A stretch of 64,000 nucleotides of DNA from Eledone cirrhosa (lineage: Eukaryota). The DNA is taken from the NCBI GenBank assembly GCA_964016885.1, contig OZ024754.1, positions 30,876,001 through 30,940,000 of the forward strand, in the 5' to 3' direction. Positions 37,237-58,225 of this stretch are shown in pieces; position 1 is the first letter of the stretch; every line of letters starts with the position of its first letter. The notes below the pieces were generated by a model. That model saw only the letters and a program-made list of their open reading frames with translations. It made no database searches and was not told where the DNA came from. A program made the position numbers and the translations under genes.

Positions 37237-37272
37237 TCTTAACGTTTCGGACGCTAGTCCTTCATCAGAAGA
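37237..37272 (-). ncRNA. Minimal type I hammerhead ribozyme, family G
   Basis: RC: UCUU-CUGAUGA-A-GGAC-UAGC-GUCC-GAAA-CG-UU^-AAGA. The element spans ~37152-37272, with related pieces at 51697-51883 and 53711-53790. Confidence 0.75.
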
Positions 37273-37546
37273 AAGAATGAGAAATAAGATAGATTGAGGG
37301 GACGGGTGGGGTGCAATTTGGAAAAACTGTTTTTAAATAATAATAATAATAATGAAATTATTGTGTACAGTGCTCAGGTGCACTACAACTCGTCAAAGGT
37401 GCATGTATAGTACATATAGAAAAATAACAGGTCCATTCACATATATATATATGTTTTTAACTTTTATTTTCCAATTCAGGTTTTGTTTTTATTTTTTTTT
37501 CCACTAACTCCGCCATTACTGCCTCTCGGAGTCCCCCCCCCCCCAC

Positions 37547-37580
37547 TTTCCTGATGAAGGGCTTATGCCCGAAACGTTGC
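37547..37580 (+). ncRNA. Hammerhead core with a degenerate stem I (family G-like)
   Basis: CUGAUGA-A-GGGC-UUAU-GCCC-GAAA-CG-UU; only 1 bp of stem I is evident. Confidence 0.55.
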
Positions 37581-45081: not shown

Positions 45082-45253
45082 AGTTTTAATATAGATGAGA
45101 TTCTACAGGACTAGAACTGTTTCATTCTTTAGAAATCATCAGATGAAACAGTTCTAGTCCTGTAGAATCTCATCTATATTAAAACTTTTATACTCTGCTA
45201 TGTATTGAGTACCTTACTTACTGTGGTTACCTCCGATTCAACCCGGAATAACG
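45082..45253. mobile_element. Family H fold-back element with its junction inside the ribozyme, in (TA)n
   Basis: Junction ...AAATCATCAG|ATGAAACAGTTC...; long arm ends CCCGGAATAACG. Confidence 0.85.
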
Positions 45254-45309
45254 TGTATATATATATATATAAGGACCCAGCATATTACTTATCAATGCCA
45301 GGATTATAT

Positions 45310-49581: not shown

Positions 49582-49817
49582 TTGTGTCAAGTTTAATATA
49601 GAAATGGCTTCTACAGGACTAGAACTGTTTCATTCAAAGGAAATCACCAGGAAAGGGCTTTCCTGATGATTTCTTAAATATATTTTATATATATGTGTGT
49701 GTTTGTGTGTGTTTGTGTATCATCATCATAACTGTTTAATGTCCGTTTTCCATGCTAGCATGGGTTAGACGAGCTGTCCCAGTGTGAGACAAGCTAGGTT
49801 GGATGACCAGAGCTGGC

Positions 49818-51023: not shown

Positions 51024-51669
51024 CATACATACATACATACATACATTCATACATACATACATATATATGTACATACATACATACAATAATCTGTTACACA
51101 GACATCTCCAGTCATCAAATGATAAAATGTGAAATATATGTACACAAGCAACACTCCAGCATGGTCGCAGTCAAATTAGATGCAATTATATATAAAGAAT
51201 GAAAGAATGAAACAGTTCTAGTCCTGTAGAATCTCATCTATATTAAAACTTTTATACTCTGCTATGTATTGAGTACCTTACTTACTGTGGTTACCTCCGA
51301 CTCAACCCGGAATAACTTACCTATATATATAAATATATGTGTGTGTGTGTGTGTATATGTATATATAGATATATATATATCATATAGGGTGTGGTAAAAA
51401 ACCAGATAGACCATAAACCACCACAGTACTCAATACTTGGGTAATATGAAAAGATGCAGGACCCCGACATGTATATATATATATATATCCTGGAGAGGAG
51501 ATGGGTTGTGCTGGGCTTAAAAGAAAAAGTACAAACATGCAAACATACATATGTATATAGATATATATATATATATACATATAGTCTGAAAATGTATATG
51601 TAATGAAATTATTTATGTGTATATATAAATGTCTTTATATATATATATATATATATCTTTTGATCTTAT

Positions 51670-53449: not shown

Positions 53450-53451
53450 GT

Positions 53452-53649
53452 ACGTTATTCCGGGTTGAATCGGAGGTAACCACAGTAAGTAAGGTACTCA
53501 ATACATTGCAGAGTATAAAAATTTTAATATAGATGAGATTCTACAGGACTAGAACTGTTTCATTCTTTAGAAATCATCAGGAATCTGAGTCCTGATGATT
53601 TCTAAAGAATGAAACAGTTCTAGTCCTGCAGAATCTCATCAATATTAAA

Positions 53650-53650
<1 letters not shown>
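53452..53650. mobile_element. Family H fold-back element; intact hammerhead on - (53536-53586), GCA-triplet mutant on +
   Basis: RC: AGAUUC-CUGAUGA-UUUC-UAAA-GAAU-GAAA-CAG-UUCUAGUC-CUG-UA^-GAAUCU. Confidence 0.85.
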
Positions 53651-54520: not shown

Positions 54521-54588
<68 letters not shown>

Positions 54589-54591
<3 letters not shown>

Positions 54592-54783
54592 TTAATATAG
54601 ATGAGATTCTACAGGACTAGAACGTGTTTCATTCTTCAGAAATCATCAGAGATTCCTGATGATTTCTGAAGTATGAAACAGTTCTAGTCCTGTAGAATCT
54701 CATCTATATTAAAACTTTTATACTCTGCTATGTATTGAGTACCTTACTTACTGTGGTTACCTCCGATTCAACCCGGAATAACG
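54589..54783. mobile_element. Family H fold-back element; hammerhead on + (54649-54701)
   Basis: GAGAUUC-CUGAUGA-...-GAAA-CAG-UUCUAGUC-CUG-UA^-GAAUCUC with one stem II substitution; (TA)n on both sides. Confidence 0.85.
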
Positions 54784-54802
54784 TATATATATATATATAT
54801 AG

Positions 54803-55727: not shown

Positions 55728-56236
55728 ATTGTTATACTTTGGGAGGGTCATGTTGCCAATAAGAAACACACGCACCAGTTGCTTTCACTCTAATTTATTA
55801 TAATAAATTTATAAATTTAGGAATTTATAAATTTCCGGTTGGTTGGTTGGTTCCACAAACCATATGGTTGTTTATATATTGTCAAAGTTCTTTCGTCACA
55901 CATTATGTGACCTCTTCAGTGACTGGGGATTCTTTTCTTTGTTTTTGTGCCTCTCCTTTGTTCTGTACTACGACTCTTCAATTACTGAAGAGGTCACAGA
56001 ATGTGTGACGAAAGAACTTTGACAATATATAAACAACCATCTGGTTGTGGAACCAACCAACCAACCAACCGGAAATTTATAAATTCCTAAATTTATAAAT
56101 TTATTATAATAAATTGAAGTGAAAGCAACTGGTGCGTGTGTTTCTTATTGGCAACATGACCCTCCCAAAGTATAACAATATCGGTTTCAACACATGTTTT
56201 CAGATAAAGAATCTTGCTAAACAAATTCAGAAACGA
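55728..56236. mobile_element. Family D fold-back element (~190-bp arms) with hammerheads at 55881-55923 (-) and 55981-56023 (+)
   Basis: RC: GUCA-CUGAAGA-G-GUCACA-UAAUG-UGUGAC-GAAA-GAAC-UU^-UGAC. Related pieces at ~21420-21550, 34905-35228 and 58545-58812. Confidence 0.8.
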
Positions 56237-57067: not shown

Positions 57068-57133
57068 TATACATATATACACATATGTATATAATATATA
57101 TTTATATATAAATATATAATTTAATATAGAAAT

Positions 57134-57184
57134 GGCTTCTACAGCTGTAGAACTGTTTCATTCGAAAGAAATCATCAGGAAGCC
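57134..57184 (-). ncRNA. Type I hammerhead ribozyme, family H variant with a compensated stem I
   Basis: RC: GGCUUC-CUGAUGA-UUUC-UUUC-GAAU-GAAA-CAG-UUCUACAG-CUG-UA^-GAAGCC. Confidence 0.85.
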
Positions 57185-57316
57185 CCTGTTTAAGTTTCCT
57201 TCTGATGATTTCCTTCGAATGAAACAGTTCTAGAAGCCATTTCTATATTAAATTTTGTACCTTACGTACTGTGGTTACCCCTGCTTGAACCTGAGACATA
57301 CATATATATGTATGTG

Positions 57317-57353
<37 letters not shown>

Positions 57354-57960
57354 GGTGGCTGCCAACTCGTTTTCGAGTACGGCCACTACTTTATATCCAT
57401 GTAGGAGAACCCCTACCGATGTGCTGAACGAGTGTGACTTTTTAGTCCAGCCAGCGACTTGAAAACTCTGGTACAAACACTACACTTGTGACAATTATTG
57501 ACACATACTGCTGGGCCCATGGTACCATGTGGCGACAAGTGCAGAGAGATCGCCAGATATAAAGCAATGCCTGTGCCGTGAAGCTTTTATAGTGAGCAAA
57601 GGCACTGCACAAAGCCAGTCCCACTCTCTTAACCAAGATGATATTTACCAAAAAGAAGAACAAGTCAACATCATTGGATACCTTCAGAGTTGCAGGTGTT
57701 ATATCAGAGTTTTCCTTCTCCTAGAATTCTGCCTTGACAAAGGCTAAGGGGTCATCTCTCCCGGTGATTTTGGATGGCCATTGACTCTTAAGAGCTCCTT
57801 TGCCCTTTGACAGGTTTTGTTTTTAGTCCTGCAGGATGTCCAAAGTCACCCTCCTCACCAAGAAACCTTTGTGGTGTTGCCAGTTTAGTCGCCAACGACC
57901 CGACCATGGGACAAGTTGTACTGGGATACATGTTACCAGTAGCACCAACTGGTGACCTGA
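57354..57960 (-). mobile_element. Longer copy of the 36129-36644 repeat
   Basis: Colinear over ~515 bp and extends ~90 bp further; TA tracts on both sides. Confidence 0.7.
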
Positions 57961-58021
57961 CATATATATATATACACATATATATACATACATATATACA
58001 TACATATATATATATATATAT

Positions 58022-58224
58022 AGTTTTAATATAGATGAGATTCTACAGGACTAGAACTGTTTCATTCATTTGAAATCATCAGGAATCCAGGAGATTCCTG
58101 ATGATTTCAAATGAATGAAACAGTTCTAGTCCTGTAGAATCTCATCTATATTAAAACTGTTATACTCTGCTATGTATTGAGTACCTTACTTACTGTGGTT
58201 ACCTCCGATTCAACCCGGAATAAC

Positions 58225-58225
<1 letters not shown>
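58022..58225. mobile_element. Family H fold-back element with one hammerhead per strand, in (TA)n
   Basis: Arms meet at ...ATCATCAGGAATCC-AG-GAGATTCCTGATGAT...; long arm ends CCCGGAATAACG-(TA)n. Confidence 0.9.
58091..58143 (+). ncRNA. Type I hammerhead ribozyme, family H
   Basis: GAGAUUC(58091-97)-CUGAUGA-UUUC-AAAU-GAAU-GAAA-CAG-UUCUAGUC-CUG-UA^(58136)-GAAUCUC; 7-bp perfect stem I and 4-bp stem III. Confidence 0.9.

What the first reader, a model, noticed from the sequence alone, without database searches (positions are those of the whole stretch)
57134..58143. Family H ribozyme: compensatory stem I changes and a monomer-competent stem III
SEEN: 58091-58143 has stem I GAGAUUC/GAAUCUC and 57134-57184 has GGCUUC/GAAGCC. 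Loop II varies (UAAA, AAAU, UUUC), while the core, stem II UUC/GAA, stem III ACAG/CUGU and the GUA triplet are fixed. This is the strongest direct evidence in the window for a selected hammerhead fold. If the region is intronic, an active copy could cut host pre-mRNA (inference).
Basis: partly seen in the sequence, partly recalled or inferred. Interest (0 to 1): 0.75.

Follow-up and report, generated by a model that had tools for sequence, protein, structure and literature searches.

The report
Penelope hammerhead at its transcript start
These are hammerhead-ribozyme motifs from a Penelope-type jumping gene with tens of thousands of copies in this genome; the motif likely begins at the first letter of the element's RNA and likely works in pairs, and at these two sites it is predicted to be locked up by its own mirror-image arm, so it would not cut host transcripts.

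Summary
Both hammerheads and the stem I compensation are real. They belong to a recently active Hydra-clade Penelope-like retroelement: 713-aa RT/GIY-YIG ORF, 31,535 exact hits of a 23-mer. The window copies are short head-to-head insertions in (TA)n. Stem I is 6 bp, not 7, because G58091 is a junction base. Two pairs covary between subfamilies. 'Monomer-competent' is not shown. Loop III is 8 nt, against 1-3 nt in 25 published Hydra families, but it is nearly invariant, has a centred CUAG palindrome, and two copies fold best as a double hammerhead. In place, the antisense arm blocks the fold by 46-76 kcal/mol (predicted), and no host exon was found, so cutting of host pre-mRNA is unlikely. The best new point is inferred: a TATA box lies 30 nt before stem I, and copy 5' ends pile up at its first base with an extra G (49 vs 3 untemplated, by eye). 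This suggests the ribozyme opens the capped transcript and that uncleaved RNA is the usual template. The scan has already noted Hydra-clade hammerhead ends on other DNA, including this genome.

The parts
58092..58142 (+). Type I hammerhead, subfamily H1, element positions +1..+51: stem I 58092-58097/58137-58142, core from 58098, U10.1.U11.1, 3-bp stem II, 4-bp stem III with 8-nt loop, predicted cleavage after 58136
58091..58091 (+). Extra G at the 5' junction, not encoded by the element (native base C); likely copied from the RNA cap
58022..58087 (-). Inverted arm (+2..+67, no tail) with a second hammerhead at 58038-58087; pairs with the forward arm as a hairpin of about 66 bp
58143..58225 (+). 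3' part of the pLTR head and the optional tail (to about +134), ending at (TA)n; in full-length copies this runs on to the ORF
57134..57184 (-). Type I hammerhead, subfamily H2 (GGCUUC/GAAGCC, loop II UUUC) with a loop III change seen in no other copy examined, which lengthens stem III and makes a 16-nt palindrome over the cleavage site; predicted cleavage after 57140
57196..57240 (+). Defective partner arm: stem I 5' strand truncated, 8 nt of stem III deleted
57118..57295 (.). Whole second head-to-head insertion (inverted arm, linker, forward arm and tail) in (TA)n
53451..53650 (-). Further H1 hairpin insertion (loop II UAAA)
54587..54788 (+). Further H1 hairpin insertion (loop II UGAA)
45082..45258 (+). 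Further H1 hairpin insertion, forward arm truncated inside stem II
51202..51319 (+). H1 arm truncated in loop II, with tail
49592..49675 (.). Degenerate H2 copy

Best explanation
The two motifs are the pseudo-LTR hammerheads of a Hydra-clade Penelope-like retroelement, left as short head-to-head insertions in (TA)n; the hammerhead likely starts at the first nucleotide of the element's capped transcript, likely cleaves slowly and mainly as a dimer, and is predicted to be silenced in these copies by its own antisense arm. Shown: full-length copies read pLTR(hammerhead, tail) - 713-aa RT/GIY-YIG ORF - microsatellite-rich 3' UTR - pLTR(hammerhead); inserted copies end at two points 3' of the cleavage site and nearly all span it. 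Inferred: a TATA promoter in the pLTR starts the RNA at +1. The element protein nicks both strands at (TA)n and primes two cDNAs from internal sites near +67 and +134. When it uses the 5' pLTR, both cDNAs run only to the cap, gain a cap-templated base, and are joined through microhomology, giving hairpins of about 200 bp like 58022-58225. Uncleaved RNA is the usual template. The ribozyme's selected job is most likely occasional processing of two-hammerhead (tandem or full-length) transcripts through a double-hammerhead, which would remove the cap and could give circular or longer-than-unit templates.
For: Parent element: shared upstream body; 86 scored ORF matches at 94-100% identity; hammerhead 45 nt before the open frame in 16 of 20 and downstream in 18 of 20 fetched loci; 713-aa ORF with all Hydra motifs. 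Start at +1: TATA box starts 30 nt before stem I in most of 59 body-anchored sequences, including divergent subfamilies (note the TATA match was part of the filter, the spacing was free); 2,351 copies with a non-native base at -1 against 20 at control position -47, of which 4 are junctions and none has G; of the first 100 listed, 80 have G, and by eye 49 are untemplated G against 3 untemplated A/T; an extra G marks capped full-length L1 insertions (PMC11702581, passage). Uncleaved template: 35 of 91 tail-anchored copies end near +1..+12 and 1 of 91 at +46; the same was found in vitro for a lizard PLE, with internal RT starts that define the tail (PMC11167929). Dimer: cofold MFE is the double hammerhead, -22.0 vs 2 x -6.1 kcal/mol; loop III nearly fixed while loop II varies in 61 copies; only 55 scattered copies have the 2-nt loop. 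In-place block.
Against: No RNA data and no cleavage assay, so start site, cap and activity are all inferred. The G count excludes junctions with C at -1 by design; in an unselected local set of 25 junctions the base was C 13, G 7, A 3, T 2, the C cases being native or microhomology. Junction classes were sorted by eye. 76 of 840 loop III permutations favour the dimer as much (9%), and 101 of 840 also cofold as a double hammerhead, so the palindrome alone is weak evidence. A 4-bp stem with an 8-nt loop can close sterically, unlike 1-3 nt loops. 20 of 26 ORF-bearing copies extend 75 nt or more upstream of +1, which a simple +1 transcript cannot template; it needs read-through, strand transfer or a circle. 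Nearest-neighbour energies ignore Mg2+, tertiary contacts and protein.
Confidence: 0.68

Rival explanations
1. The long loop III is an adaptation that makes the hammerhead active as a monomer, so single copies self-cleave; at +1 it would act as a self-decapping switch.
For: 8-nt loop against 1-3 nt in all 25 Hydra families listed; stem III pair probabilities 0.3-0.46 for H1 and 0.7-0.85 for the 57134 copy; the short-loop deletion arises often (55 copies) but never amplified; weak excess of 5' ends at the cleavage position: 26 non-stem-I junctions at +46 against 11 at +43 over the same 1.8 Gb, p about 0.01, mostly preceded by T and not G.
Against: Competing hairpin over the cleavage site is more stable than stem III (-2.0 vs -1.4); three-stem fold probability 0.01-0.04 isolated and about 1e-5 or lower with 3' context; 3-bp stem II with U.U at its base; loop sequence conserved with a centred palindrome; ends at +46 are more than 10-fold rarer than ends at +1.
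Confidence: 0.25
2. The fold is kept as a structure or protein-binding element (or for overlapping promoter sequence) and cleavage plays little part in transposition.
For: Templates are mostly uncleaved; catalytic mutants did not change insertion in vitro and no RNA-seq reads ended at the site for the lizard PLE (PMC11167929); Naiads spread without canonical hammerheads (PMC8557442); the motif overlaps the predicted start site.
Against: All catalytic core letters and the GUA triplet are conserved across subfamilies while loop II and the TATA spacer diverge; weak +46 excess.
Confidence: 0.2
3. 5' ends pile up at +1 because reverse transcriptase stalls at the base of stem I, or because +1/+3 is a splice acceptor, not because transcription starts there.
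For: The pile-up coincides with stem I; the upstream sequence is U-rich and ends in CAG at +2, and an intron end maps to helix I in Drosophila virilis Penelope (PMC4209133).
Against: RT opens stem I from its 3' strand, far from +1; neither idea gives an untemplated G; no shared upstream exon is joined at +3 in 91 copies; TATA spacing is fixed.
Confidence: 0.12
4. These copies cut host pre-mRNA from inside an intron.
For: Tens of thousands of copies make some intronic, unpaired ones certain in principle; retrozymes are depleted from Xenopus introns (bioRxiv 2026.07.22.740005, passages).
Against: Antisense arm precedes the sense hammerhead on either strand, 46-76 kcal/mol penalty; no host exon recognised in 148 frames from 264 kb (two loci gave only low-complexity hits).
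Confidence: 0.05

Closest known systems
Hydra clade of C-terminal EN+ Penelope-like elements (Craig et al. 2021, PMC8557442), e.g. Hydra-1_Obim, Penelope-1_NV, Penelope-9_HM, Hydra-1_Amil
   Same: RWK-type, DKT, YRDD, CxCX5C, CxxC and CxH motifs, no CCHH; (TA)n targets; pLTR hammerhead; inverted 5'-truncated copy and optional tail. In File S2, U10.1.U11.1 occurs in 14 of 25 families and ACAG/CUGU stem III in 4 of 25.
   Different: Loop III 8 nt rather than 1-3 nt; hammerhead sequence matches none of the listed families; unit about 5-6 kb because of a 2-3 kb (TA/TG) 3' UTR rather than under 3 kb; tail about 65 nt rather than 30-40; best database relatives only 39-53% identical.
Minimal PLE hammerheads (Cervera and De la Pena 2014, PMC4209133)
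   Same: Type I, in pLTRs, mostly solo or opposite-strand pairs, palindromic loop III, subfamily covariation, dimer model.
   Different: Those have a long helix II with G10.1-C11.1 and little or no helix III; here helix II is 3 bp with U.U and helix III is 4 bp with an 8-nt loop.
PAc, Poseidon PLE of Anolis (Frangieh et al. 2024, PMC11167929)
   Same: Two internal RT start sites bounding the tail, both strands extended, AT-rich target, uncleaved RNA as template.
   Different: Other clade; its hammerhead overlaps the ORF start, here the ATG is at about +181; no cap-G signature reported in the parts read.
Non-LTR retrozymes (PMC7229834; bioRxiv 2026.07.22.740005)
   Same: Short type I hammerhead repeats related to PLE pLTRs.
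   Different: Retrozymes are head-to-tail tandem units; these are head-to-head stubs of an autonomous element.

Membership tests
Type I hammerhead ribozyme | Core CUGANGA...GAAA with NUH triplet | tested here: met
Type I hammerhead ribozyme | Three stems, ends in stem I, with covariation | tested here: met
   95.7% of cells paired; 2 compensatory pairs in stem I, none in stems II/III
Type I hammerhead ribozyme | G10.1-C11.1 pair | tested here: not met
   U.U in 60 of 61 copies at each position; common in Hydra-clade motifs
Type I hammerhead ribozyme | Rfam hammerhead model hit | tested here: not met
Type I hammerhead ribozyme | Site-specific self-cleavage | not testable with these tools
   only a weak genomic excess of ends at +46
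Penelope-like element, C-terminal EN+ | Single ORF with RT then GIY-YIG endonuclease | tested here: met
   713 aa, YRDD at 347, YIG at 602; Pfam GIY-YIG only below cut-off, E 0.004-0.012
Penelope-like element, C-terminal EN+ | pLTRs with hammerhead, partial tandems, inverted 5'-truncated copy, optional tail | tested here: met
Hydra clade | RWK motif, DKT, no GxKF/Y | tested here: met
   RWR at 38 (K in 88, R in 29 of 120 homologs), DKT at 116, no GxK[FY]
Hydra clade | CxCX5C linker; CxxC and CxH around conserved E and N; CCHH absent | tested here: met
   C566/568/574, C666/669, C694/H696 conserved in at least 116 of 120; C589, C598 not conserved
Hydra clade | Insertion into (TA)n | tested here: met
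   3' flank is (TA)n in 29 of 30 loci
Hydra clade | Generally under 3 kb | tested here: not met
   hammerhead-to-hammerhead 4.7-6.3 kb; a tendency in the paper, not a strict criterion
Hydra clade | Placement in an RT tree with the reference families | not tested
   reference proteins were seen only as supplement text and compared by eye
Non-LTR retrozyme | Head-to-tail tandem units each with a hammerhead, no coding parent in cis | tested here: not met
   head-to-head arms; identical sequence in full-length coding copies

The most novel reading that the evidence does not exclude
This Penelope family puts its hammerhead at nucleotide +1 of its own capped mRNA, as a self-decapping switch with a loop III that allows both monomer and dimer folds, and the genome records both states: thousands of insertions ending in a cap-derived G at +1 and a small class ending without G at the cleavage site, a fossil trace of PLE ribozyme cleavage in vivo.
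Probability: 0.3. Interest if true: 0.7.

Novelty: new member of a known kind. Interest (0 to 1): 0.42.

Why it matters
What the hammerhead does in endonuclease-bearing Penelope elements is an open question (stated in PMC8557442). This family is young, has intact ORFs and tens of thousands of stubs whose ends map the RNA template base by base. If the +1 start and cap G hold, the common hairpin stubs are copies of the transcript's 5' end rather than truncated 3' ends, and ribozyme cleavage would decap the element's mRNA. That gives exact, testable predictions. The ribozyme itself and its stem I covariation are of a known kind, and the host-gene-cutting idea fails at these loci.

Tried and rejected
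Rfam: no hammerhead family hit; only hairpin-shaped miRNA models below threshold. Pfam on partial ORFs: nothing. Host gene: 148 of 403 candidate frames scanned, no real exon found; introns can be long, so this does not prove the site is intergenic. A suspected hammerhead-less subfamily (24 of 100 rows) proved to be a tail fragment carried inside another related element, so it says nothing on dispensability. Neptune-clade assignment considered and dropped: linker is CxCX5C, CCHH absent. Artefactual compensation by junction templating: rejected because body-anchored copies show it. 2-nt loop III as an ancestral subfamily: rejected, 55 scattered copies with many different loop II sequences. Lunse et al. 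on dimeric PLE hammerheads is not held and was not read; it may already list long-loop variants. Literature searches for a PLE hammerhead at the start site or a cap G gave no such report in the listings; the library lacks most subscription papers, and Schostak et al. 2008 was not read.

Full report
Numbering: +1 is the first base of the 6-bp stem I (window 58092). H1 is the AGAUUC/GAAUCU subfamily, H2 the GGCUUC/GAAGCC group. The host is an unnamed 3.0-Gb, microsatellite-rich genome; I did not identify it.

1. Observation. Both motifs are present. 58092-58142 (+) and 57134-57184 (minus strand) fit a type I hammerhead with a 3-bp stem II on a U.U pair, a 4-bp stem III and GUA. Each is one arm of an inverted repeat: 58022-58225 and 57118-57295, both in (TA)n. 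At least seven more pieces lie in the window. A 23-mer has 31,535 exact genome hits against 0 for the control; a tail 25-mer has 9,066. Rfam does not recognise the motif and the isolated folds are not better than shuffles.

2. Parent element. Of 30 loci matching the 58091 copy, 8 shared an upstream body. Extending them reached the end of a GIY-YIG coding region on the hammerhead strand. A protein search scored 86 matches at 94-100% identity, most without stops. In 20 fetched loci the script found the hammerhead 45 nt before the open frame in 16 and again 4.7-6.7 kb downstream in 18. The ORF is 713 aa from ATG. It carries RWR, DKT, YRDD, CxCX5C, YIG, CxxC and CxH, and lacks GxKF/Y and a conserved CCHH (120 of 1,399 homologs aligned). 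These are the published marks of the Hydra clade (PMC8557442 section 11), which targets (TA)n. Inverted 5'-truncated copies with a one-sided tail are standard for PLEs (passages). No tree was built.

3. Covariation. In copies that keep the body, stem I is AGAUUC/GAAUCU (most), AGCUUC/GAAGCU (L043), GGCUUC/GAAGCC (L283) or GGCUUU/GAAGCC (L170, L254); L293 and L140 are mismatched. On 25 distinct rows, 95.7% of cells pair and 2 of 13 pairs change on both sides; the number of such pairs does not beat the shuffle control (232 of 500), though cell counts and score do. This is about two events. In 61 of 91 tail-anchored copies that keep the full register, loop II varies at all four positions while core, stems II/III and loop III are near fixed (30 truncated or gapped copies dropped). 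So selection on the fold is supported, mostly by conservation.

4. Monomer or dimer. In File S2 of PMC8557442 all 25 Hydra families have loop III of 1-3 nt; here it is 8 nt, which reads as a 6-nt duplication (direct reading). Only 55 scattered copies have the 2-nt form. Against it: stem III alone is -1.4 kcal/mol, a hairpin over the cleavage site -2.0, and the three-stem fold has predicted probability 0.01-0.04, falling to about 1e-5 or less with 3' context. The loop holds a centred CUAG, and the free cofold of two H1 copies is the double hammerhead (-22.0 vs -12.2). But 76 of 840 loop permutations do as well. The 57134 copy has a stronger stem III (pair probability 0.7-0.85) through a change not seen in other copies listed, which also makes a 16-nt palindrome, and its cofold MFE is not the active dimer. 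Metazoan PLE hammerheads tested so far were inactive as monomers and weak as dimers (PMC4209133, parts 1-2 of 4). I favour slow, mainly dimeric cleavage; it is untested.

5. Host pre-mRNA. The arms meet at their 5' ends, so on either strand the antisense arm is made first. Forcing the hammerhead costs 76 kcal/mol at 58022-58221 (both strands) and 46 at 57118-57295. No host exon was recognised in 148 of 403 candidate frames over 264 kb. The idea is unlikely here; unpaired copies elsewhere were not assessed.

6. Where copies begin. A TATA box starts 30 nt before +1 in most of 59 body-anchored sequences, including H2 bodies whose spacer has diverged, and +1 sits in an initiator-like CCAGAUU context (the TATA and initiator consensus are recalled). 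2,351 copies have a non-C base at -1. Of the first 100 listed, sorted by eye: 8 are point mutants of the body, 80 have G and 12 have A or T. Of the 80, 22 are explained by the inverted arm and 9 are ambiguous, leaving 49 untemplated G against 3 untemplated A/T. At control position -47 there are 20 hits, 4 of them junctions, none with G. In an unselected local set of 25 junctions, C (13, native or microhomology) outnumbered G (7), so G is the main untemplated base, not the main base. An extra G marks capped full-length L1 insertions (PMC11702581, passage). G58091 is such a base. Among 91 tail-anchored copies, 35 end between about -2 and +12, about 20 extend past -29, and 1 ends at +46 (breakpoints are noisy for divergent subfamilies).

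7. Cleavage trace. At +46 there are 217 hits with non-A before; of 100 listed, 46 are point mutants, 2 internal deletions, 26 junctions explained by stem I symmetry and 26 other junctions, mostly preceded by T. The matched control at +43 has 11 junctions over the same 1.8 Gb; 26 vs 11 gives p about 0.01. A scan of +42..+51 also peaks at +44..+46 (41 of 73 rows). This is a weak hint, by eye, that some cleaved RNA is copied.

8. Mechanism. Shown: architecture, two 3' end points downstream of the cleavage site, 5' pile-up at +1. Inferred: transcription from +1; nicking of both strands in (TA)n; two cDNAs primed near +67 and +134, as shown in vitro for a lizard PLE whose hammerhead cut only with protein and was not needed for insertion (PMC11167929, parts 1-2 of 4); run-off at the cap and microhomology joining give the hairpin. 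20 of 26 ORF-bearing copies extend 75 nt or more upstream of +1, so longer-than-unit templates also exist; dimer cleavage and circularisation would explain them, as would read-through or strand transfer.

9. Novelty. Hammerheads in Hydra-clade pLTRs are published. The family, its 8-nt loop III and the +1/cap-G reading were not in what I read or in search listings. Also seen: passages of PMC6765202, PMC7229834 and PMC13282606; part 1 of 5 and passages of bioRxiv 2026.07.22.740005, whose supplements were not seen. Lunse et al. was not available and may bear on the loop III claim. Earlier scan notes on other DNA reach the same family assignment; none overlapped this place.

10. Verdict. Interest 0.42, carried by the start-site reading.

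Noticed in passing
L111 and L112, 3' UTR of full-length copies; L313, L318, L324 passenger tail: The (TA)n 3' UTR decays to TG on the sense strand only (TG 372 and 429 against CA 5 and 8), and a passenger tail copy differs from H1 by 6 A>G and 3 T>C of 11 changes. This looks like A-to-I editing of double-stranded element RNA fixed by reverse transcription (inference).
   Followed up: partly
window 3329, 10403, 10556, 12565, 12948, 13113, 13658, 50144, 59208: A second hammerhead family with an 8-bp A/U stem I, long stem II and a loopless palindromic helix III (obligate dimer form), often in inverted pairs.
   Followed up: partly
window 55891-56013; 37245-37574; 59898: Further minimal hammerhead families, some as inverted pairs; probably other PLE ends.
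   Followed up: no
window 58160-58220 (tail): The tail folds into two adjacent small hairpins in MFE models; earlier scan notes propose such hairpins as RT start signals. Not tested here.
   Followed up: no
L313-L335: A hammerhead-deleted H1 tail fragment, fused through stem I symmetry, rides inside a related element and makes up 24 of 100 rows.
   Followed up: partly
L116 (G000:C410): An open frame of 1,516 codons containing the PLE ORF, about twice the usual length.
   Followed up: no
window 57356-57940: Non-tandem stretch between the two insertions; its start also flanks H1 copies at L010 and L011, so it is another dispersed repeat that sits in (TA)n.
   Followed up: no
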